Translations under genes and position numbers: made by a program
The notes under the pieces: generated by a model
The model's input: the letters and a program-made list of their open reading frames with translations, nothing else
What the model was told of the DNA's origin: nothing
Databases searched by the model: none
Part shown: positions 89 through 48,505 of the stretch, in pieces
Layout: each line of letters starts with the position of its first letter
How positions within the stretch are numbered: the first letter of the stretch is position 1
From: Podarcis bocagei
Taxonomy: Eukaryota
Reading direction: 5' to 3' (one strand)
Assembly (NCBI GenBank): GCA_964188305.1
Contig: OZ076894.1
Length of the DNA stretch: 64,000 bases

Positions 89-3000
89 AGGGAGGAGCAT
101 AGCAGCCGCAGGATTCTTCCTGGGAGGCTACACATCTGTGCAGTCCTGTTAAGCCACACTTTGTCTTATCATTTTAGGTGAACCAGGCCACTGTATATCT
201 AGTGGCAAAGGGGTAAGGAAGACGAGAGAGAACACGTACATGTGTGTAGTGGGGGCTTGCAACCATGCCACCCAACATCCTGTGTTTGTCTTGTACAGTG
301 GGCGGGTTTTACCTAACCAGACCCGTCAGCGGAAGAAGCCCTGTGCAAGGACTTCCACATGTGCAATGGGTTGCTCCCCCTCTCCCTTCCCCATCAAAAT
401 GGGCTCTGGAAGGCTTGGGAGAACCTCCAGAACAGTGTGCAGGGGGAAGAGGGAGGGATAGTTCCATCTGGCAAAACTGAAATGCTTGTGCAGATGGAAT
501 GATTAAAAGAGTGCGACGCTGACTCTCACCCAGTGGCTGTATTAACAAGTCCTTTTCAAACCTCCTAGCAAGAATAACACAGAAGTCAGGGGCACATGAA
601 GGGTTGGCCACCACCTGAAACATTCATTGTACACGTAATGTGTATCACCATAAAACAGAAGCATTCCTCAAAGAGAAAGTACTGATTATTTGGCTGAGAA
701 AACAGGCTCACACCTAAAGCCCAGAGAAGGCAAAAGAAAGGAGGCAGACATTATTATTTAGACACTTGCTCAAGAGTAATCCTCGCCCCCAAGAACTGTA
801 GCCAAAACTGTAGCCTGAGTCCATGAGGCTTGAACATAGAAATAACTTGCTAGGGGAGTGGCCATTTGGACTGAAACTGCGTCACTTCTCTTTCTCCTTT
901 GCATGAGCACTTTTTTCTATTTTGCCTTTTTTAGATTATAAACCTGTGGGCCAGGCCTGTATTAAGTTTTAATTATGTTCCATACCCAGCTTTGCATGCT
1001 CTGCAATAATGCTATTTGATACTTGGATTCAATTCAGTGCTGTAATAATTATATTATTCACCCACCCACACGCATACACCCAGTGACTTACCTTGTGCTG
1101 ACTGTACAATGAAGCACATGGGTTGCCCAAAGGGTGTCAAAGCACAACTTTTATGTGCGTAAGAGGGCACATTTTCATATGTTTTCCCTCCAAACGTAAG
1201 TGCTTCACTCGAGAACAGACTGGAATTTGGTAAAAGCAAACCATGCAATATTTCCAACACGTATTTTAAATATTGGTCCCTTTTAGTCTCTGCATTGGGT
1301 ATGACTGCAAACTCACATTGTTATTTTCATTTCCTACTTACTCACCAACTACTAGGCATTGGGGGGACAAGCCATGCTATGACAGAAAGCAAACCTTTGA
1401 AAATGGTGTGTGTGTTTAAAAACCTACATGAAATGCACGCCTTTCAAAGAAAAGAACCAAAAACGCTTGGGTAGGCACTGAAGGCAGTGTTATCTTGTTT
1501 TCGGATAACATTTTTTGCCAAGAAAATATTTAAATTGTGTAACAAGCTGCACATCTATATCAACAAATAGTAGCATTTTTAAACTTTTTAGATTTCTATT
1601 CAATGTACAGCCCTTTAAAAGGAGGAGGAGGAGGGGGTGGTGGAAGGGGCAGATTGATGCTATTATTGAGCTGCCCATAAAGAACGTCCTGCTAACACCC
1701 TTTCAGCACATCCCCACATGTACCTAATCTGAACATAAAAGGGTGGGATTAAAACTGCCAAGATAAAAACTGCCTGCAGTTTCAAGCTTCAGTGGTGGTG
1801 GTTTAAATCCTTGGTTACTTGCATCCTTCAAAAATGTGAAATGCTAAGAATTCCCACTCACCTCCAAGTTACAAACAGGATCATACAGATCATCCACACC
1901 TGCAAGCTCACCATGCAGTGCAGGATCTTGAATGTCATCTTAAAAAAACAAATAAATCAAGTTTCTAGCCCTTGAAGATAAAGAAAAATGGAAGGGATAC
2001 AGGCAGTTGCTTCTGAAAGGAAACTAAAACTCTCAAGCAGAGATTCCATTGGGTAAGAGGATATTGTATTTCAGCAGAGATTTTGTACATGCAACTTATA
2101 TTTCCCATATGTGGTAGATTCTGTAGTGTACCAACGAAAGCGTCATACTGTAGCATACAGTCCAAAGCTGATTTGCAACCATGGGCAGGCTTGCTCCAGA
2201 TGTAAAATTGTGTCATGGGAAAGAAGATATGGGAAGAAAAGATAATAATGCATGCAACCCCATTGCCTGATCCCAATCTCTTAACCTTGGTTAAGAGTTT
2301 GTGAATGTTGTATCTGAACAAATCTATAGTAGTTAAACTGAAGCTTGCATTTCTGAAAGTAAACTGATATAAAACAGACACGTTCATACATCAAATTTCA
2401 AAAGAAAAATATTTTCCTTTTAACACCACTTATGGCAAACTATATTATACATAAATGCATAGCCTTGACTCTTTTGCTATTTGCTATTATTCTTATTACA
2501 ATTACTATAGCGCTGATGATTTAATAGCGCTTCCCATCCCCCAAGTAATTTCGTATTATTTTTCTGGCAGTCAAATATTCTTCACAAAAAGAACTAGAAG
2601 ATTAAGAGTAATTAGTGTAACTTTTCTTACTGACAGAAAAGCACTGAAAGGAGAGATCAAGACATATTTCAAGATTCAGCAACTGTTTTTCCAGGTTAGT
2701 AGCATTGAAAATATTTCGCAAGAATGGGAAGTTAGAAAGAAGGACCACAGAAGAATTATATATAGAATGAAGCCCACATAAAGAAGATTCTATTAATTTT
2801 GCTATTGACAAATCTCACAGCAGTTATCACATGGTGGACTTGAGGGTAGAAGAAAGCCATGTTAGATGCCAAACCGGGGAGAAAGAAAATTTATTAAAGG
2901 AGCTCAGGTCGGCATACATAAGAGTTGCCACAGTTTTATTTTCACTAGAAGTTTCTGGGGAAGGTTTGTTCACACAGGATGCTAAGTCGTGGTTTGTTTA

Positions 3001-3223
3001 GCTTCACTGCAATTATTTATATGTCCAAACCAAGCTCACAAAATACAGTTTTGAATATGACCAACAAACCATGGCTTGAAGTTGGCTTACAAATCTGAGC
3101 TTGTCTTAATCATGGTTCCTTTTTAGGTCTGAAATGGTACTCTAATTTGTTTCAGTGTCCCAGTTCAAATGCTCACTGGCTGTACCTGGATGAGTCACAA
3201 AATGTAAGAAAACAAAACCAATA

Positions 3224-3449
3224 CAGTGGTACCTCGGGTTACATATACTTCAGGTTACAGACTCCGCTAACCCAGAAATAGTACCTCAGGTTAAGAACTT
3301 TGCTTCAGGATGAGAACAGAAATCGTGCTCCGGCAGCGCGGTGGCAGCGGGAGGCCCCATTAGCTAAAGTGGTGCTTCAGGTTAAGAACAGTTTCAGGTT
3401 AAGAACACACCTCTGGAACGAATTAAGTTCTTAACCCGAGGCACCACTG
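3224..3449 (+). mobile_element. Tc1/mariner-pogo (Tigger-like) MITE family A
   Basis: TIR CAGTGGTACCTCGGGTTA, TA TSD; five copies in the window. Confidence 0.88.
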
Positions 3450-3604
3450 TATTACAAAAACAACTTGCAGTTACTTTGCTCACCTGCAATGTTGATCCTC
3501 TTTTGTTCAATAGATCGTGATTAAAATAAACCATGGCTTAGTGTTGTGTGCAAACGCGGCCAGTTACTTCTTCACACATAGCATCAAACAACAGTTTAAC
3601 ATTA

Positions 3605-4217
3605 TTTATTAAGAGATTTCTATACCACCCTTCAACAAAAAAGGTCAGAAGCAATTTACCCCAAAAAAGTAATATAAAACATATTAAATGAAAGCGTTAA
3701 AATAATTCTCAGAATTTATATAAATAGCATAATCAAAAACACCCCCAAAAATGACTTAACTGTCAACCACTAAAAGCTGGCAAAAATGGTGTGCTTTTTA
3801 CCCAATATCTGAAAGAATACAGAGTCGGGGCAAGATGCAAGTCAATGGGGGTGCCATTCCAGTGTCACAGATCCAACACCAAAAATGCTCTTCCGCAGGT
3901 CCCTGGACTATACACCTCCTTTAACACAGCAACCACCATGAAAGCCTCTCCCACTGATCAACCAACACAGGTAGGGTGGTACAGAAGAAAGCATTATCTC
4001 ATACATTTGGATCCAGGCCATTCAACATAAGCACCCTGAGCTGGGCCTAGAAGGTAACTGACAACTAGTGCAGATGTTTAGTAACAGGAGTTGTGGTCGA
4101 CTGGCCCACTGCCATTGACACCAACTGCATTCCACACTAGTTGCAACTTTTGGATTAATTTCAAGGGCAGACCCATTTAAAGTGCATTACAGTAGTCCAT
4201 CCTGGAGGTTACTAGAG
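3605..4217 (-). mobile_element. Old L2-clade LINE fragment
   Basis: Minus strand gives LVTSRMDYCNAL.MGLPLKLIQKLQLV and an L2-like 3' end; heavily decayed. Confidence 0.65.
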
Positions 4218-16837: not shown

Positions 16838-17050
16838 GTAGTAGATAGGTAGCCGTGTTGGTCTGCCATAGTCAAAATAAAAAAATTTTCTTCCAGTAGC
16901 ACCTTAAAGACCAACTAAGTTAGTTCTTGGTATGAGCTTTCGTGTGCATGCACACTTCTTCAGATCTGAAGAAGTGTGCATGCACACGAAAGCTCATACC
17001 AAGAACTAACTTAGTTGGTCTTTAAGGTGCTACTGGAAGAAAATTTTTTT
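16838..17050. mobile_element. Penelope-like element remnant forming a fold-back palindrome with hammerhead-ribozyme cores
   Basis: 12-bp TSD ATATCCTATTAA (16826-16837, 17051-17062); perfect palindrome 16877-17052; motif CTGAAGA-A-GTGTGCATGCACAC-GAAA-GCTC. Confidence 0.78.
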
Positions 17051-19223
17051 ATATCCTATTAAAAATGTGAACGAGACAACTGGGTGTAATTCGGTATTGG
17101 TGGAATGACAGCAATGGAACAACAGGAGTAAAATCACTAGTAAATTTCCCATGTGGGGTTCAGCTTACAGATGAGCAGAGTGCCATTGACTAATTTAATG
17201 TATGTACAGAGGGTACCAAAATAAAAATGAAGTCCTTGCACTTTAACTGCTTTCAAGTACAGCACATTGAAACATAGTCCATCCTTCCATTCCAAAATTT
17301 ACCACAGCTTTGGTCACAGGGGGTCAGGGCACAGGAGTGTTTCACAAGAGGAAGACGAAGGGTCAAAAGATGGGCAACAGTAGGAAACAACTTTAGCAGT
17401 TCATTTCCCTTCTAAAAGAATGACAGTTATTTCCTCTTTCCATGAGGGAAAAGGTGGATTAAAACAAACACATTGTAAGAAATAAAAGGGAGTGAACATC
17501 CTCATACTAAATACATTCAGCTGAAGCAAAACCCATTTAAATTCAATAGCTTTTTACTGTGCAAAACATTTTATGGCATACACAAACCCTGTATCAGTCT
17601 TTTGCCCTAAAAACAGAATGAAAAAGGAGCCAGCTTCTAAAAAGTTTCTCTGCACAGTTTTTTGGAATATCCCCCCACACACACACACACACTAGGTGCA
17701 ACGGTATGACAGATCCACTAGATACAGCTTGCATGTGTTGTGCTTCCTGAGAGGAACTAGGAAGAGGTAGGGGCAATATTCACTTTCCTCTGGCTTGAGG
17801 AGAGGGAAGCTACTGAGAGCTGTGAAACCGTTACTTAAATAATACTTTTAGGTTGGGTTTAGAAAGTTTGTTTGATACTGTAAGCAATTCCAGAACCTTT
17901 AAATACAGGCAACCAGGCAAGTAGCTATTAACTAGTCTGGCATACTGCAAAGTAATAATTAGTGTTTATAAGTCATGCTTAAAAGCATAAAAAGCACCTT
18001 GTATACCTTAGCTCAGCAATCCTTAAGGCAGTCACGGAAAACAGACCAGTACTATCCCCTAGGGCAGATTCTCTCATATCAAGCTGAGAGAACAATACGC
18101 TTGCCACTACAGCCCACACTTAATTTAGGTACCATAAAGAATTGCTAATATCTCAGCACCTTGGGAGGATGTGTCACCAATGGCGAGACCACTGCTAGCC
18201 TCAGCATTTGAGCTACGGTGGACTCCCAGCAATTAAAATTGTGGGGACCAGAAGCCACATTTCCATGGAACACTGTCTTCTTACAATCTATGGGATATGT
18301 TTAAGTTGTCGTGGCCTGAAGAGGCCAACTCCACACCCTCTTGGTCCCTTACCAATTACAGTTGGCAAAATCTAGAAGGAAGATATTGATTGGATGGCTA
18401 ATGCTTCACTATGCGAGGGACTTATAGCTACCATCTTGAAAGACACAGTGGCGTGGCCTTTTCTTAACAGGCCCTCCCTGGACCCGGAGGGTACAGAAAA
18501 TGCCAGTCCCCAGTATTCACTTTCCTGATCATGTGGAGCCTCTGCACAGCTCATGCACTGGGGTTTCTTTACAGTCAACAAAGTGCCACACTGAGGAAGA
18601 GGACACAACATCAGGGGCAATGTTAAAAGTGTGGCCCTGCTCCAAAATAAATATGCCCTACATGTGAGTAACACAGGAACAGAGGTTTTGTCCCAATTAC
18701 AATGGCACCTGGCTGGGGGGGACTAGGGCTATCCCTGGGTGTGTGGGTAATGAATGGGTGATGACCCCAGCCCAACTACTTTTGGGAGGGGGGTGCTTGG
18801 TGCCCAGCTGTCTTCCACCCACCCAGTGAGGTTTTTCACCTCCTCAATGCCTAGAGCAGGGAGGCAGGTGCCAGAAGACCTTGCTGGCACTGCCATTGCT
18901 AAAGCAACAGGAAAATAAGGAGGAGCATGCCACTACCAGGAGCAGGAGTGGATGAAGGAAAGGTGTGGGGAACACGGTGTGATTTGTCCTGGCTCCACAT
19001 CCCCCTAGCTCTAGCCCAGGGAAAGGGATAAGTGTTTGTATTTTCAGATCACGGTACACTGCCCCCCTTCTTCACCGAACGGTTCAGGTCTTCTTGAAAC
19101 TGATCTTGGCTAAGTAATATAGGGTAGGATCTTCCACACAAAGGATGGTTCTTCATTAGACAGGCTCATACAGTTGTTATGGACCAGAAAAGGAAAGCAC
19201 ACATTTTTACAGCCTGCTATATA

Positions 19224-23133: not shown

Positions 23134-23619
23134 CAGTGTTTCCCAACCTTTTTTGGGCAAAGGCACACTTGTTTGATGAAAAAAATCTCGAGGCACACCA
23201 CCATTACAGCCCCGTGACGTCAGCGCGCAGCGTCACGCCGGGAGGGACGCACGAAAGTGTAAGTTTCAATTTTTTTCCCTCCCCCTTGCCGGGGAACCTC
23301 CAAGCTTTGGGGATGGGGGGGGAGGAGGCAGCAAAGCGAGGCAGGAAGGAGAGCGCGGCTTGGCTGGGTGAGCTTTGGCAGGGGCAGGGAATGAGAGCCG
23401 CGAGGCGGGCGCTGCGGACGGAGGCGCTGCCCGCCGAGCTCGCAGGCAGCCAGGCAGGCAGACGGCGAGAGCCCCGCGCTGGGCGGCCTCTCCTCGCCGC
23501 CGCCGCCCCGCCTCTCGCCGCCCGACTCGCCCGCCTCCCTCCAGGCAACATCTCGCGGCACACCAGGCAACATCTCGCGGCACACTAGTGTGCTGCGGAA
23601 CAGTGGTTGGGAAACACTG
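23134..23619 (-). mobile_element. Non-autonomous hAT element, same family as 28972-30429, different GC-rich interior
   Basis: Same 15-bp TIR; perfect 8-bp TSD GAATAAGC (23126-23133, 23620-23627); shares about 70 bp at one end and about 110 bp at the other with the larger element; opposite orientation. Confidence 0.93.
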
Positions 23620-28030: not shown

Positions 28031-28971
28031 TTTATCATATTTGCATTTTTTAACTCCTTTAAAGGCTGTTCTTGGAATGCCATTTGACCATTGAAGGACA
28101 AGGCATAAACTTCAAAAGTAAACAAACGACTACCAAGTTTTATTTTCTGTTTGCAGGCATTGGGTGCAAGGCTACTTTGAATAGTGCCAAGTGAACTGTG
28201 CAGTAACAGCAAAGAGGAGAGCTGCAGCAAGGTGTTCATTGCAATATTTACTGCATCGTGACAGTTTCAATATAGACAGTTCTGAAAAGCTAGCACCGCT
28301 CAAAGAAGAAAGATGCAAGAAACAATTGAAATGTCAGGAAGGAAGTCCACATATTGGAAGAAGCAATGGACGTCTCCAAGCCATCTTCTACTGTTCCAAT
28401 GCCTGGATTTGACAACATCACCCAAGAATATTGCAGACACCATTATGTGCATTTTACAGTGAACTATTCATAGGTAGCTTACTGTATTTGCAAGTATTTA
28501 AAGCAAAGCAAGAAGAAAGGAATGCACAAGCAGGCACCATTGTTTCCCTCTTATTGTTGTGTTTTGCGGGAGATGGAGAGAAAGTGAAATTAACACAAGT
28601 GACACCCAAAGAGCTACAAAACTCCCGTTAGTTGTTAGGGCCACAAATGATACCAATATGCTAATAATAATAATACAAAGAGTAAGGATTAATAAGTACC
28701 TCCGTAAGAATGCTAAGTGTTGTAACTAATACACAGTTATAATGGAACGAAGGAACAATGCTACAAGTATCGAATTAGTTAGAATTAGAGAGCAATGACA
28801 AAGTGCAAGCTAGTGATGTGTTCAAGATTAGGGACACAATCCACAACTGAGCTATGCAGCAGGGGGTGGGGTTTGCATTGACAACCTCTACACTGCTCAG
28901 CTCTCACCAACTCCTGGCATATGCAGGGCTGAGATACCTGAAATTTGGGCAACCCAGGTGGTTGTCTAGGT

Positions 28972-30429
28972 CAGTGTTTCCCAACCGGTGTTCCGCGGCA
29001 CACTAGTGTGCCGTGGAACTTTGCCTTGTGTTCCGTGGAGGCGGGCGAGTCGGGCGGTGAGAGGCGGGGCGGCGGCGGCGAGCACACGCGGGGCGGCAAG
29101 CGAGCTCCCACATCCCATCGCCGCTCGCTACTGGGCCTGCGCATCCGCTCGCTACTGGGCCTGCCCCAGGAGGTGGGGTTGCGGGCATAACGCCCTTCCC
29201 CACGTGAGCGGGGAATCCCATCCGCCCCCACGTGAGCGGGGAATCCCATCTCAGCCCCCGCGAGAGCAGGGGAATCCCATCCGGCCACGCCTCCTGGCCA
29301 GCCAATCGGCTGGCTGGAGGGGACGTGGCTTGCCCTTTTTAGGGCCGGAGCGGAGGGGGCTCGCCCTCTCTTCTCCGGCTAGCCCCATCGCCGCTCGCTA
29401 CTGGGCCTGCGCATGCTCGGCGAGCACACGCGGGGCGGCGAGCGAGCGAGCTCCCACATCCGACGGCACCAAGCAGGGGCCGTTGGCCGTGCCGGTGCCC
29501 ACCGTGCCCGCCTCCGCCCAGGAGGGCGGCAAGCAGCCACCGCCGCCACCACCCCCGCCGCTGCCCAGCAACCGCGCCGCCGCCCCCGGCTCCCCGCGGC
29601 GGGTGATCGTGCAGGCTTCGACGGGCGAGCTGCTCCGCTGCCTGGGGGACTTCGTGTGCCGCCGCTGCTACCACATCCCATCGCCGCTCGCTACTGGGCC
29701 TGCGCGTGCGCGATCGCGCCTTCGGGATTCCCTTCAGCAGGCATCAAGCAGCCTGCCTCCCTGCTTTTTCCAATTAAGGGAACCTCCACTCTCCTGCCCC
29801 TCCGTGTTTCTCACCCCAAAGCCTTGTGGGCAGCAGGAAGTGGGGCCGTCCTGCCTCTACCCCACGCCGGGTGGCTGCTGACACGTCCCTTGGGCAGGAG
29901 AGGCATCCGGCTGGATGAAGGCAGCGACGCCGGGGGAACGAAACAGCACGGCAGGTCTGAGTTGGCGCCTGGAAGGACACAGACTGCTTCATGTCGCTGC
30001 ATTCCACAGCTCCGAGGCTGGCAGGTGAGTGCGTGCACTCCTCTCTCTCATTTTATTTAATGTGCATTTTAGAAGCATGTGGAAATATCCTGCGTCATCA
30101 ACCACTTTGGGGAAAGTGTGCGTGTGTGTGTTTGGGGCTAGATTTCATGCATGCCTTTTTTTTAAGTTCTCTTCCTGCTTCATCCACATTCACCCCCCAA
30201 AAGGCCATTTTCTGCGTGCTGAATAAATTCTGCAACTTACTATTTCATAATAAAGTAATTATAAAATACTTCCTTTGTGTTTATTTGATTCCTATTAAAG
30301 AGAGTTACTTTATATATAGTCAATATAGGCACAGAGTTAATTTTTTAAACATTTTCTAATGGTGGTGTGCCGCGAGATTTTTTTCATGAAACAAGTGTGC
30401 CTTTGCCCAAAAAAGGTTGGGAAACACTG
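28972..30429 (+). mobile_element. Non-autonomous hAT element with captured cargo (Pack-hAT)
   Basis: TIR CAGTGTTTCCCAACC / GGTTGGGAAACACTG; perfect 8-bp TSD GTCTAGGT (28964-28971, 30430-30437); no transposase; GC-rich mosaic interior. Confidence 0.93.
29462..29671 (+). pseudogene. CDK5R2: Captured internal fragment of CDK5 activator p39
   Basis: [80 protein letters not shown] and [28 protein letters not shown] match p39 as recalled rather than p35. No native start or stop; lies inside the hAT element. Confidence 0.9.
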
Positions 30430-31521
30430 GTCTAGGTTGCCTCGAAGGCCCCTAGTGTTATCTCTAATTAGGGCAGAGTTATTAGACATAATTACCAAAA
30501 GCAAACAGATAACATACCTTTTATTCAGCATACTTCTCAAGAAGCTATCTACTACTATATTAGTGCATATATATATTTAAAAAAAAGAATGCAGAAAGCA
30601 GAGACTGAATGATGCTCATATTCTAGAGGAGGCAAGCGCTGTCTAACATGTCCTCAGTCTACAGTTATGTGTCAATGAGAAGATGAGTTGTTACAAGAAA
30701 TCACAGGCTTTTAAAAGCAAAAAAACAAAACAGAATTAACTGAAAGGTTAATTACAGAAGAAAGGTAAAACCCTGTAATTAAGCTCATACAAAAAAAAAC
30801 CTTTAAGATGAAGTAGGAAGTAAGGTTTTCCCCCCAAGGCTTTTGCCAACACATGTCTTACACCATTAACTAGAATTTGACAAAAGGCAAAACAAGCTTA
30901 ACAGCAACCAAATGACCATTTATCCTAAAAGGGCAGAATTAAAAGTAATGCATCATTTGCTATAATTATTTGAAGTTAAACAGCTCCAGAAAATAACAAA
31001 GATGCACTGTGATGGGGTATGCACACTGGGACATACCTTGCTGCTTTAAACAACTGAACCATTGGCCATTCAAGACCAGCACTGTATTGGAGATACGTAA
31101 CCAACACATGTGCTCTAACCAGGATCTACAGTCCCTCCTCCACCACAGGTGGTGAAGGAACAGCACTATAAATGCAGAGAAAACATGGGTGGCTAACCTG
31201 CAGCACAAATATCACACATGGATCATGGAGGTTTGAGACATACTTTCATAGAAGCACATGGACCCATAGGCCTGGATAGAGCATGACAGCAATGACTATG
31301 GCATAGCGGCTCTTTCCTGCCTCCTCCTGAACAATGTGCTTTTGCCTGCTCTCGAATGCAGCAGATTAGTGGCAAACCTACTCCAAGGTACTAGTAGTTT
31401 ATTGTGGCATTATCATATACTCTGGACTTGACTTGTGGCACACTTCACCCAAAAAACTGACCACCACTGAAATGAGCAAGTTTAACATGTGCATTTATCT
31501 GCCAATATGGCTAACTATCGC

Positions 31522-44759: not shown

Positions 44760-47463
44760 CTGTAGATTTTGATCCTTTTAATGGTTTGCTACTTATGTTA
44801 TATTGAATCATTAGAAACAAATGAAAATAGAAAGAGCAAAACAGTTTTTAATATTGCAATGACAAAATGTACCAGTGATTTGTGGTGGGGCATATGTACA
44901 TCTAACAGAAATAAAAAGGATTTATATACTTTTTTTTTTTTGCACAGAGTAAACATTTAAGATGTAATGTGCAAAGTTACAAATTAAAAAAATGTTGCGC
45001 TTAACACATAGTTTACAAAGGGATGGAATGTAGAAACAAGTAAAACCGAAATACACTACCAGCGGGTGGTGGTGGTTGTTTTCTTTTTGGCGGGTCTTCA
45101 CTTGTGTTTATATAATAACCTTTTAGTAAGAGAAGACAGACGGCTCCGTTGTACAATAGCCTACGGGTCTGGACACACCCTACAACACTCTGCCATCACA
45201 ATGACAAAATCAATAAAGAAAAGTGCTATAACCTTGACTTAAAATGGAAAGGAAACCACTAACCTATATTAAAAAGATATGCCATCAGCACAATGTATTT
45301 TTTCATTCTCTTCTTCAATAGCTATTATTTTAGGTGTATGTATGGATTTTAAACTATTTGCCACAAGATTGTTCATGCTTAAGGTTTCTGAAGGCCATAA
45401 TTCCTTAGTGACTACCAGCATGAAAAGTCTTTAATCCCCCCACTAGATGTTTGGAAATTCTTCTAGTAAAGATTCCAGATCTCCCCCCCCCCCCAGTTGC
45501 TGTTGCTTTTTTTTTAATGTATCAGGAATGTTGTTAAGGGGCAAGCATTTCATGTCAGATCTTTCTCTTCCTTTTGCAAAATAACTATAAAAAAACTCTT
45601 TCCCCCCCTTGCTTACAGGGTGACCTAGCACACCCTGCTGTGCAGTGCCAATGAGACCATAGCCATCCAACATTTTAATTTGCCCAGACACATTTATGTC
45701 ATGGGCCTGTGATCCTGGCCTTTTAAATACTGAAGAACACCCCAGTTCTTTATTTCCCAAACCTGCTTTGTGTTTTTGCATGAATTGTTCATTAAGAAAC
45801 AAGAAACACAAGTAACAAAAGAGATTGTAAACTTCTTGGAGGAGAGACCAATAAAAAAATTCCAACACAGGGAAGGGAAATGGACGGAAGGATAAAGCAG
45901 GGCAAGAATGTGTGTTCAGTTTGGTTCCACATAAACTTAGCTTCAATAAGGGTTGAAGATTAAGGGGTTGTGCCAAAGGTTTAACTAAAAAGGTGGCTTT
46001 AGAAGGAGGACAGAATTAATGCAATGCAATGTGCTCTGAAATGGTGTTCCAGAGATGTATTTCCTTTGTTGTTTATGCAATCAAACATACTGAAAGCCTT
46101 CAAACAATAGAAGAGACTGGGGGTTCTTGAACAAGTAGATAACCATTTTTTTCTTGTCAAGTTCCATGACTCTTTGACAGGGTCATGTGCAGGCTTCATG
46201 TTGGTGGCAAAAAGGGGATCTTATACTGTTAATGCAAATGAAAAATCAGGAGGACTTAATGCATCTTCTACCCTTATGGTCTATTTTTACTCACATTGGT
46301 TGTAAAGTCCACCAGAGTGCACTTTATACAGCGTCTGTGGGCAGATTTTTTCCTTCCTTTAGACCTTATGAAAGGCAAGCCAACTTTTTAAGGGCTCAAG
46401 AGATGGCATTTATAATGCTGCTAATACTATGTGAAGAAAATCAATGTTGGATTGGTGGACTAGAAAGGCTGCCCCTCTTAGGAATGGCTTAAAGATGCTC
46501 ACCCAGTGATAGACCACAAATAATCAGCTTGTATTTTAACCAAACATCAGAATTTTGAAGAAAATAAATGTGCTTGTGAAAGTCTTAAATTTAAAATTTC
46601 AAAGCAGCAAAAAAAAAAAAGCAAATAAAATTCAGCCTCAACTCAGCATTGTTATGTCTGGGATGTTGCAGCTCAACTTATGCAATGGTTAGTAAGCATA
46701 AGATTTCAAGAGCAGCTTTAAGATCAAGCTAGACTGATCTTGCAGCAATAACTGGTCAGTTTACTTCTAAAGCTTGTATATCCCATCTCAGTTGCACAAC
46801 ATACTTCTTCAGGATCAACACTGCTTTGTTACAATTATTATTTTATTTCTACAATTTGTTATTTTCTGGTTTAAAGCAACTTGATTTATTCATTTTTTCA
46901 TCAAAATGAGGTTCACTGCATTCATGAGGCTAGAGGAAGTTAGTCACATATTTTCTCTTCTCCCTTGTCCCTCAGTATAGTTGTGTCATTATTTATTTAT
47001 TTATTTTTTAAAAAGACATTTGGTTCATTTCCAGATAGCTGCTTATCCGGTCAGCTGGCCACAATAGTAGCACTGAGGCAGATCTTGCCATGGTCTTAGA
47101 TTCCTTTAGGAGGAAGATGAAGACATATCCACCTCCACTAGGTGTTTGAAGGTGAGGAAGTATACTTTTTGACATTGGGTTGGTCATCAATACTACCATA
47201 TGGGTGACCCTTTTATTAGTACAAAGCCAGCTACAATAATGCCAAATGCTACTTTAGAAACCTCCTTCAGGTTACAGGTGTAAACCTGCTTCGGATGACA
47301 TTTATGCCATTTAAAAATATTACCGTATTTTTCGCTCTATAACACGCACCTGACCATAACACGCACATCGTTTTTAGAGGAGGAAAACAAGGGGAAAAAT
47401 ATTCTGAATGAAACAGTGGACGTATCATTTTTGTGCTTCATGCTGTGGCCACAGACATGTGAT

Positions 47464-47850
47464 CTGATGGTGAATTTGGGGTGACCCAATGCAAAAATCC
47501 TGAGAATCCCTGTGGATCCATGCTTTGTAACCACGTTTTTGCACCATTGCAGCCCCAGGCAACAGTGGGTGCGTGATTTTTTTTGGGGGGGACAGGCTGT
47601 AGTCATGGACATGCTATGTGCTCTGATGGTGAATTTTGGCTGACCCAATGCAAAGATCCTGAGGATCCATGTGGATCCATGCTTTGTAACCACGTTTTTG
47701 CACCATTGCAGCCCCAGGCAACAGTGGGTGCGTGATTTTTTGGGGGGGGCAGGCTGTAGCCATGGGCATGCTGTGTGCTCTGATGGTGAATTTGGGGTGA
47801 CCCAATGCAAAGATCCTGAGGATCCATGTGGATCCATGCTTTGTAACCAC
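47464..47850. repeat. About 158-bp tandem repeat, about 2.4 copies
   Basis: Unit starts CTGATGGTGAATTT at 47464, 47623 and 47780. Confidence 0.9.
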
Positions 47851-48138
47851 ATTTTAAGTGGGGAGGGAAGGAAAAACACAGAAGGCTAAGAATGCAGGAG
47901 AGGGCTATAACGTGAGGAAAGGAAGGCAAAAGTTTCCCCCCACCCACCCACCCAAGCCAGCCAGCGTGTGCTCTCTCTCTCTCTCTCTCTCCCTCTTTAA
48001 ATGGAAGAAAGCATATTTGAATGCTGTGTGTCTCCAAAAACAAAAAGCAGGAAGTCAAATCAGAATTTTAAGCCGAACCTGTAGTCTCTCTTCCCTTTAC
48101 AAACATTGTTCCTCCGGAGCAGGGGCAGGATAGAAGGA

Positions 48139-48505
48139 CGGACGCTCTGCTTTCCCTCTCTACTTGCCTGGAGGGGAGGGGCTTTCCCTGCTCTTTGTTC
48201 GGACGCTCTGCTTTCCCTCTCTACTTGCCTGGAGGGGAGGGGCTTTCCCTGCTCTTTGTTCGGACGCTCTGCTTTCCCTCTCTACTTGCCTGGAGGGGAG
48301 GGGCTTTCCCTGCTCTTTGTTCGGACGCTCTGCTTTCCCTCTCTACTTGCCTGGAGGGGAGGGGCTTTCCCTGCTCTTTGTTCGGACGCTCTGCTTTCCC
48401 TCTCTACTTGCCTGGAGGGGAGGGGCTTTCCCTGCTCTTTGTTCGGACGCTCTGCTTTTCCCCTCTTCTTGCCTGGAGGGGAGGGGCTTCCCCTGCTCTT
48501 TGTTC
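48139..48505. repeat. 61-bp minisatellite, 6 copies
   Basis: Unit CGGACGCTCTGCTTTCCCTCTCTACTTGCCTGGAGGGGAGGGGCTTTCCCTGCTCTTTGTT at 48139, 48200, 48261, 48322, 48383 and 48444. Confidence 0.95.

What the first reader, a model, noticed from the sequence alone, without database searches (positions are those of the whole stretch)
29454..29678. Capture junctions show the mechanism: 8-bp duplication plus microhomology inside an internal repeat
Seen: the element has an uninterrupted motif CGAGCTC-CCACATCC-CATCGCCGCTCGCTACTGGGCCTGCGC at 29101. A second copy is split as CGAGCTC-CCACATCC [209-bp CDK5R2 piece] CCACATCC-CATCGCCGCTCG, with CCACATCC at 29454-29461 and 29671-29678. There is no poly(A). Inference: p39 reads ..P-D-G.. 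and ..C-Y-R.. at these points, so CC at each junction could be shared with the donor. That fits template switching or microhomology-mediated gap repair rather than retroposition. An 8-bp duplication is also the hAT stagger length, so repair of a transposase-made break is an alternative.
Basis: partly seen in the sequence, partly recalled or inferred. Interest (0 to 1): 0.72.

Follow-up and report, generated by a model that had tools for sequence, protein, structure and literature searches.

The report
Transposon caught copying a host gene
A cut-and-paste jumping gene carries a 209-base piece of a host CDK5-activator gene, copies without the piece survive elsewhere in the same genome, and the joins suggest it was likely copied in when DNA synthesis switched templates at a predicted hairpin, not through the jumping gene's own cut; this is a well-preserved new case of a known kind of gene capture.

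Summary
Observation confirmed; the mechanism claim is partly supported. The window holds a 1458-bp non-autonomous Buster-type hAT (28972-30429, TSD GTCTAGGT). Its insert matches one TIR-less CDK5-activator gene on another contig over 213 bp (4 mismatches), with exactly 2 bp (CC) shared at each junction. Empty-site full-length copies exist (L049, L050). All 13 filled copies share the left junction, so there was one capture, later spread by transposition; two filled copies keep an intact 626-aa transposase ORF. The 8-bp repeat does not look like a hAT target cut: 44 of 44 family TSDs are nnnTAnnn, CCACATCC is not, and microhomology makes the duplication 4-8 bp. The junctions alone do not prove a mechanism: 2+2 bp arises by chance in 4-8% of simulations, and the donor has no intron, so RNA-templated internal priming stays open. 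Context favours a DNA template switch: the site lies in a predicted hairpin loop hit by other rearrangements, and other host pieces captured by this family look genomic. This is a multicopy Pack-TIR (Tan 2021). The scan found Pack-TIR-type hAT captures before in other genomes.

The parts
28964..28971 (+). Left target-site duplication GTCTAGGT (centre TA)
   Evidence: identical copy at 30430-30437; the empty locus is seen in three public runs
28972..30429 (+). Non-autonomous Buster-type hAT element, 1458 bp, class A filled copy
   Evidence: full-length relatives encode a 626-aa transposase
28972..28986 (+). 5' terminal inverted repeat CAGTGTTTCCCAACC
29101..29143 (+). First, uninterrupted copy of the subterminal motif (CCACATCC at 29108-29115); part of a repeat that is a 146-bp tandem unit in L081
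29157..29387 (+). Separate acquired piece matching the terminus of a split-repeat (Ngaro-like, label inferred) retroelement; absent in L060/L081; CCCA microhomology at its right end, no duplication
29454..29461 (+). Left CCACATCC; last two bases (CC) shared with the donor; lies in a predicted 14-nt hairpin loop in empty-site copies
29460..29672 (+). Captured piece of the CDK5-activator gene on C1 (CDS nt 275-487, aa 92-163); 213 bp with both microhomologies, 209 bp donor-only (29462-29670)
29671..29678 (+). Right CCACATCC; first two bases (CC) shared with the donor; donor end GCTACC matches element GCTCCC at 5 of 6
29682..29694 (+). CGCCGCTCGCTAC, right arm of the predicted hairpin; 12 of 13 like the donor's own end (29660-29671), out of register with the junction
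29735..30237 (+). Second host-derived piece, matching a TIR-less locus on C15 (817 bp in full-length copies); CA microhomology at its left end; cut at 30237 by an internal deletion with ACT microhomology
30415..30429 (+). 3' terminal inverted repeat
30430..30437 (+). Right target-site duplication GTCTAGGT

Best explanation
A 209-213 bp piece of a host CDK5-activator gene sits inside the 5' subterminal repeat of a Buster-type hAT transposon with CC shared at both joins, and it was likely copied in once by a DNA template switch during replication or repair, then spread by transposition. Inferred steps: (1) synthesis through a full-length element stalls at a GC-rich inverted repeat whose predicted 14-nt loop holds CCACATCC; (2) the nascent strand ending ..CCCACATCC anneals by CC, plus loose upstream similarity, to the open CpG-rich donor exon and copies 211 more bases; (3) the new end ..GCTACC returns to the element at GCTCCC, six bases behind the exit, so ACATCC is copied again and an apparent 8-bp repeat results; (4) the family's transposase moves the chimaera. 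Shown: donor, microhomologies, empty sites, one shared left junction, distinct TSDs. Later descendants: class A (internal deletion; the window), class B (5-bp loss at the right junction; full-length), class C (second switch after 179 bp onto a short MITE end, CTGC microhomology).
For: Exact 2-bp microhomology at both ends. Junction-flush loose similarity at both ends together is reached by 0.3-1.8% of donor breakpoint pairs, depending on window length (post hoc). Empty-site full-length copies L049 and L050. 13 of 13 filled copies share the left junction, at 11 independent insertion sites (L009-L011 share TSD and flank). CCACATCC lies wholly in the predicted loop in both empty copies; 7% of 8-mers in the 5' 700 bp are unpaired inside a stem of 6 bp or more, 1.5% with equal or lower energy. 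Of 8 rearrangements measured in the family, 4 have a breakpoint at this motif, and two of those are pure intra-element duplications that need no RNA; at least one junction of each of the 8 has 1-4 bp microhomology. Two other captured pieces match TIR-less genomic loci and carry a GT splice-donor-like site with long downstream sequence, so they look DNA-templated. The 8-bp form is likely ancestral: class B has private derived changes while class A matches empty copies at those sites; contigs from runs labelled as four organisms bridge the right junction without the 5-bp gap, and one contig laid on a class B copy adds CATCC. Agrees with FoSTeST (PMC8277862) and MMBIR (PMC2621351).
Against: 2+2 bp microhomology occurs in 4-8% of simulated captures; each junction alone is unremarkable (25% of positions; flush similarity top 1-7% left, 4-14% right). 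The hairpin is not unusually stable against shuffles (z -1.55, 17 of 200 as good; opposite strand z -0.24; the window's first motif copy z +1.06). The 8 rearrangements were picked by eye, not exhaustively. No filled or transposase-bearing copy is on the donor's contig and no family piece lies in 20 kb around the donor, so proximity is not shown. The donor is intronless, so a DNA template is not proven for this insert. The 12-of-13 off-register match (top 4-11%) is not explained by the simple model.
Confidence: 0.55

Rival explanations
1. Two-ended repair: both strands were nicked in the loops of an extruded cruciform, giving a staggered break with 3' overhangs; both 3' ends primed on donor DNA by CC/GG microhomology and the gap was filled (synthesis-dependent or polymerase-theta-type templated insertion; names from established knowledge).
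For: Explains directly why the repeat is duplicated and why the microhomology is at the very 3' end of both strands; the site is in a predicted loop on both strands.
Against: Gives the same final sequence as the best model, so nothing here favours it. The neighbouring tandem duplications at the same motif are simpler as one-strand slips. Hairpin stability is modest.
Confidence: 0.18
2. RNA-templated capture: a LINE reverse transcriptase primed internally on the donor's mRNA at a staggered break, leaving a tail-less insert with a short target-site duplication.
For: The insert lies wholly in the CDS of an intronless gene. Internal priming yields TSD-flanked inserts without poly(A), also without an L1 endonuclease site (PMC5402677 passages). 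A long intact LINE ORF interrupts family copy L046, so such enzymes were recently present.
Against: No TTTT/AA-type site at the edge (bottom strand GGATGTGG/GAGCTC; consensus recalled). Other captures in this family look genomic. The same motif rearranges without any donor. Germ-line expression of the donor was not tested.
Confidence: 0.17
3. The hAT transposase cut its own subterminal region as an integration target (8-bp stagger) and the break was filled from the donor.
For: The maximal duplication is 8 bp, the hAT TSD length; the transposase binds near this region (established knowledge) and intact ORFs exist.
Against: 44 of 44 tallied TSDs have TA at positions 4-5; CCACATCC scores -5.4 bits against a minimum of +1.3 and median +5.4, and 12 TA-centred 8-mers in the same 700 bp were not used. 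The duplication is 4-8 bp once microhomology is allowed. No other capture checked has a duplication. One later TSD pair (L084) has CA in one copy and TA in the other, likely a later mutation.
Confidence: 0.06

Closest known systems
Multicopy Pack-TIRs of animals, e.g. Pack-hAT-N8_XT (CAPSL 5' UTR) and Ssk-FB4; FoSTeST model (Tan et al. 2021, PMC8277862; read: abstract, outline, sections 7, 9, 14, 12 passages, term search of 12 supplementary files)
   Same: Host piece of more than 100 bp inside a TIR element; unique TIR-less parent far away; several copies with distinct TSDs; median 2-bp microhomology; repetitive, rearrangement-prone terminal region.
   Different: Here the pre-capture state survives in near-identical full-length copies, two filled copies keep an intact transposase ORF, and the insert is additive with a 4-8 bp duplication. 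In the sections read, the vertebrate multicopy cases numbered four and no autonomous carrier was described; the one lizard genome screened had 0 Pack-TIRs.
Buster family of hAT transposons (PMC3517528, 12 passages)
   Same: 8-bp nnnTAnnn TSD, short TIRs, ZBED5/FAM200-like transposase.
   Different: A composite 5' region of about 1.5 kb built from captured pieces lies upstream of an internal second 5'-end-like sequence.
MMBIR / FoSTeS (Hastings et al. 2009, PMC2621351, 12 passages)
   Same: 2-5 bp microhomology junctions, multiple switches, hairpins proposed as stall and single-strand sites.
   Different: Described for human copy-number variants; here the product is inside a transposon and was amplified.
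Internal priming of L1/Alu insertions (described in PMC5402677, 10 passages; the primary paper was not read)
   Same: Tail-less insert flanked by a short duplication at a staggered break.
   Different: Described for retroelement RNAs in hominids, not for a host CDS fragment inside a DNA transposon; not tested here.

Membership tests
Pack-TIR (Tan 2021) | Internal non-TE sequence of 100-5000 bp between both TIRs of one element | tested here: met
   209-213 bp inside a 1458-bp element with both TIRs
Pack-TIR (Tan 2021) | Unique parental copy at 90% identity or more, similar length | tested here: met
   L004, 209 of 213 identical; next TIR-less hit 79% over 82 bp; three paralogs in the genome
Pack-TIR (Tan 2021) | Parent not flanked by the TE (no segmental duplication) | tested here: met
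   No family sequence in 20 kb around the donor other than the insert match
Pack-TIR (Tan 2021) | Not an intron-less copy of a multi-exon gene (retrocopy control) | tested here: inconclusive
   The donor CDS is one 312-codon exon, so it passes the filter but the test has no power
Multicopy Pack-TIR | Several copies with distinct TSDs | tested here: met
   13 filled copies at 11 independent sites
FoSTeST origin | Spatial proximity of donor and element at the time of capture | not testable with these tools
   No Hi-C; no filled or transposase-bearing copy on contig C1
FoSTeST origin | Repetitive, rearrangement-prone terminal region | tested here: met
   146-bp and 20-bp tandem duplications, fold-back inversions and swaps in the 5' region
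hAT, Buster family | 8-bp TSD with consensus nnnTAnnn | tested here: met
   44 of 44; consensus from PMC3517528
hAT, Buster family | Buster-type transposase | tested here: inconclusive
   Atlas top hits ZBED5/FAM200-like at 0.97-0.99; Pfam hits below cut-off; no PDB hit; no tree was built
hAT target-site duplication (for CCACATCC) | Matches the family's target preference | tested here: not met
   Centre CA/TG, score -5.4 against a TSD minimum of +1.3
Classical TPRT retrocopy | Poly(A) tail and L1 endonuclease site | tested here: not met
   No tail; no T-rich nick site
CDK5R2 (p39) orthologue | CDK5-activator gene next to a tandem Wnt pair (WNT6-WNT10A synteny, recalled) | tested here: met

The most novel reading that the evidence does not exclude
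This recently active vertebrate hAT family has a built-in capture hot spot: a hairpin loop in its 5' subterminal repeat where synthesis switches templates again and again, so that even transposase-coding copies serially pick up host DNA, and captured splice donors serve the transposase mRNA. The surviving before-and-after series would make the FoSTeST model directly testable in a vertebrate.
Probability: 0.3. Interest if true: 0.68.

Novelty: new member of a known kind. Interest (0 to 1): 0.42.

Why it matters
How TIR transposons capture host DNA is still argued from indirect cases, and few multicopy vertebrate examples are described (four in Tan 2021). Here donor, empty site, founder-type junction, full-length carriers with intact ORFs and three descendant classes are all in one genome at 93-98% identity, and the window insertion is absent in another individual. 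That allows a base-level reconstruction and a reporter test. The insert itself is likely inert: no ATG lies upstream in its frame in the three full-length filled copies, and the predicted splice runs into a stop.

Tried and rejected
hAT target cut as the source of the 8 bp: rejected on TSD preference. Class B (no full duplication) as the founder: rejected; going from the 8-bp form to B is one slip between two CATC repeats, B carries private changes and other runs show the 8-bp form. CCACATCC belonging to the donor: not in L004. The paralog on C12 as donor: 79% only. A fused p39-transposase protein: no in-frame ATG and a stop right after the acceptor. G-quadruplex at the site: one motif in the 5' region, about 450 bp from the site, none in the donor stretch. 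Hairpin significance by shuffling: not significant. Donor of the high-copy internal piece in L031-L040: not found; 40 of 237 candidates were scored and the source was not among them as far as could be told. Expression of the chimaeric piece: no RNA holder listed; raw RNA reads over the insert were 0-2 deep and the contigs spanning it come from runs only guessed to be RNA, so no conclusion. A 14-nt junction pattern gave 20 matches, 6 at known copies; the other 14 were not opened and are near chance for this genome size. An 18-nt left-junction pattern gave 25 matches, 13 at known copies; the other 12 were not opened (control 58). PDB search of the transposase was empty. Paper searches and the supplement search found no report of a CDK5R2 capture; only listings were seen for papers not named above, and most subscription papers are not searched.

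Full report
Observation. The insert 29462-29670 reads in a CDK5-activator frame and has no poly(A). It lies in a 1458-bp element, 28972-30429, with 15-bp TIRs and the TSD GTCTAGGT.

Donor. A genome search with the insert gave 15 matches, all 15 candidates scored: 13 element copies, one TIR-less locus at 98% (L004, contig C1) and a paralog at 79%. L004 is a single-exon 312-codon CDK5-activator gene; the match covers CDS nt 275-487, 213 bp with 4 mismatches. The genome has three such paralogs. The donor lies downstream of two tandem Wnt genes, which fits CDK5R2 synteny as I recall it; no call gives the name. No family sequence lies in the 20 kb around it.

Junctions. Exact microhomology is CC at each end. 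Since the donor can supply both CC, the element-only duplication is ACAT (4 bp), and the length is 4 to 8 bp. Two bases or more occur at 25% of donor positions for each junction, and at both ends in 8.0%, 6.7% or 4.1% of 200,000 simulated captures under three null models. Loose similarity flush with the junctions ranks in the top 1-7% (left) and 4-14% (right) by window length, and jointly in the top 0.3-1.8%; these tests were chosen after seeing the data. The donor's end also matches the element 11-23 bases downstream of the site at 12 of 13 (top 4-11%), which I cannot fully explain.

Empty sites and family history. A search with the right flank scored all 31 candidates; 10 match it whole: 6 filled and 4 without the insert. 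L049 and L050 are full-length, same context, single CCACATCC, with broken ORFs. L081 is full-length with an intact 626-aa ORF and three tandem motif copies. Filled copies fall into class A (3; internal deletion; 8-bp repeat), class B (3; full-length type; 5 bp shorter at the right junction; L047 and L048 with intact ORFs, L046 interrupted by a LINE) and class C (7; insert cut at 179 bp and joined to a short MITE end). All 13 share the left junction. L009-L011 share TSD and flank, so there are 11 independent sites. Classes A and B share two derived changes against empty copies in the downstream alignment; B has private changes there (columns 23, 55, 99, 247, 257) while A matches the empty copies. 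Contigs from four runs in four studies, labelled as four organisms, bridge the right junction with no 5-base gap, and a contig from a fifth study adds CATCC when laid on class B. Contigs drop rare variants, so this shows presence of the 8-bp form, not absence of B. Three of the four runs show the window locus without the element, one of them with the commonest organism label, so the window insertion is young.

Is the 8 bp a hAT stagger? The family is Buster-like: transposase look-alikes are ZBED5/FAM200-type (Pfam below cut-off), and 44 of 44 tallied TSDs are nnnTAnnn (L036 dropped for lack of a TIR match, L010 and L011 dropped as duplicates; for four loci only the left copy was seen, and L033's two flanks differ). 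That consensus defines Buster TSDs (PMC3517528). CCACATCC scores -5.4 bits; the weakest real TSD scores +1.3. The transposase-cut reading is therefore unlikely.

Why this site? In both empty copies the site folds, as single-stranded DNA, into a stem of 10-13 bp with CCACATCC wholly in a 14-nt loop. Only 7% of 8-mers in the 5' 700 bp are placed so, 1.5% at equal or lower energy, but the fold is not unusual against shuffles (z -1.55). Of eight rearrangements that I measured, four break at this motif: the capture, a 20-bp duplication, the 146-bp unit junction and the class B deletion. Each of the eight has 1-4 bp microhomology at one junction or more, and no other capture has a duplication. Two more host pieces have TIR-less parents: 817 bp from C15, partly kept in the window at 29735-30237, and 1121 bp from C4 in older copies. 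Both carry a GT splice-donor-like site followed by long downstream sequence, so they look copied from DNA.

Mechanism. Most likely (0.55) one nascent strand left the element after CCACATCC, copied the donor from CC, and returned six bases upstream at GCTCCC. Two-ended repair of a staggered break in a cruciform gives the same product (0.18). Internal priming on the donor's mRNA cannot be excluded, as the gene is intronless (0.17; PMC5402677). A transposase target cut is unlikely (0.06). Donor, microhomology, empty sites and spread are shown; stalling, strand switching and the hairpin's role are inferred.

Function. In the three full-length filled copies the p39 frame stays open to the splice donor, but there is no upstream in-frame ATG and the acceptor is followed by a stop. 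RNA reads show sense transcription of a family transposase exon, with many differences from L048 and with loose ends that match the exon of older copies lacking the insert. The cargo is likely inert.

Comparison. The element meets the testable Pack-TIR criteria of Tan et al. 2021 and resembles their multicopy class, for which they propose FoSTeST. Their median microhomology is 2 bp. What is unusual is the completeness of the series and carriage in ORF-intact copies. Earlier notes of this scan list several Pack-TIR-type hAT captures in other genomes; none matched this sequence. Verdict: real, well preserved, new member of a known kind; interest 0.42.

Noticed in passing
L085 (element about 400-1514) and L092 1501-2618: Older full-length copies carry 1121 bp matching a TIR-less C4 locus. 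The piece ends at a TA-centred 8-mer (CTCTAATC) directly before an internal second 5'-end-like sequence, as if the flank of an ancestral shorter element was taken along under a new 5' end.
   Followed up: partly
L048 about 2973-3700: RNA reads show a family transposase exon transcribed in sense; 16 reads in X22 have loose ends matching the exon of L083-L085-type copies, whose GT donor sits at the start of the C4-derived piece. A captured splice donor may serve the transposase mRNA.
   Followed up: partly
window 29157-29387; L041-L045: About 210 bp matching nearly a whole terminal repeat of a split-repeat (Ngaro-like) retroelement sits in the hAT 5' region, inserted at a copy of ATCCCATCG.
   Followed up: partly
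window 29735-30237; L089: Second host-derived piece from a C15 locus; the gene, if any, was not identified.
   Followed up: partly
L062-L080: A subfamily of about 1.0-1.3 kb with a fold-back inversion of the same motif region, some with it duplicated.
   Followed up: no
L031-L040: A 1.3-kb subfamily carries about 670 bp of GC-rich sequence of unknown source; 237 candidate copies in the genome.
   Followed up: partly
window 23134-23619: A short 486-bp member of the same family on the minus strand, TSD GCTTATTC; its interior supplies the 3' part of class C.
   Followed up: yes
window 16877-17052: Perfect 176-bp palindrome (two 88-nt arms, no spacer).
   Followed up: no
window 47457-48505: Tandem arrays of 159-bp and 61-bp units with 93-98% matches.
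   Followed up: no
L046: A LINE with a 1244-codon open reading frame interrupts the transposase of this filled copy.
   Followed up: no
L015 1070-2020: A third CDK5-activator paralog (316 aa) besides those on C1 and C13.
   Followed up: no
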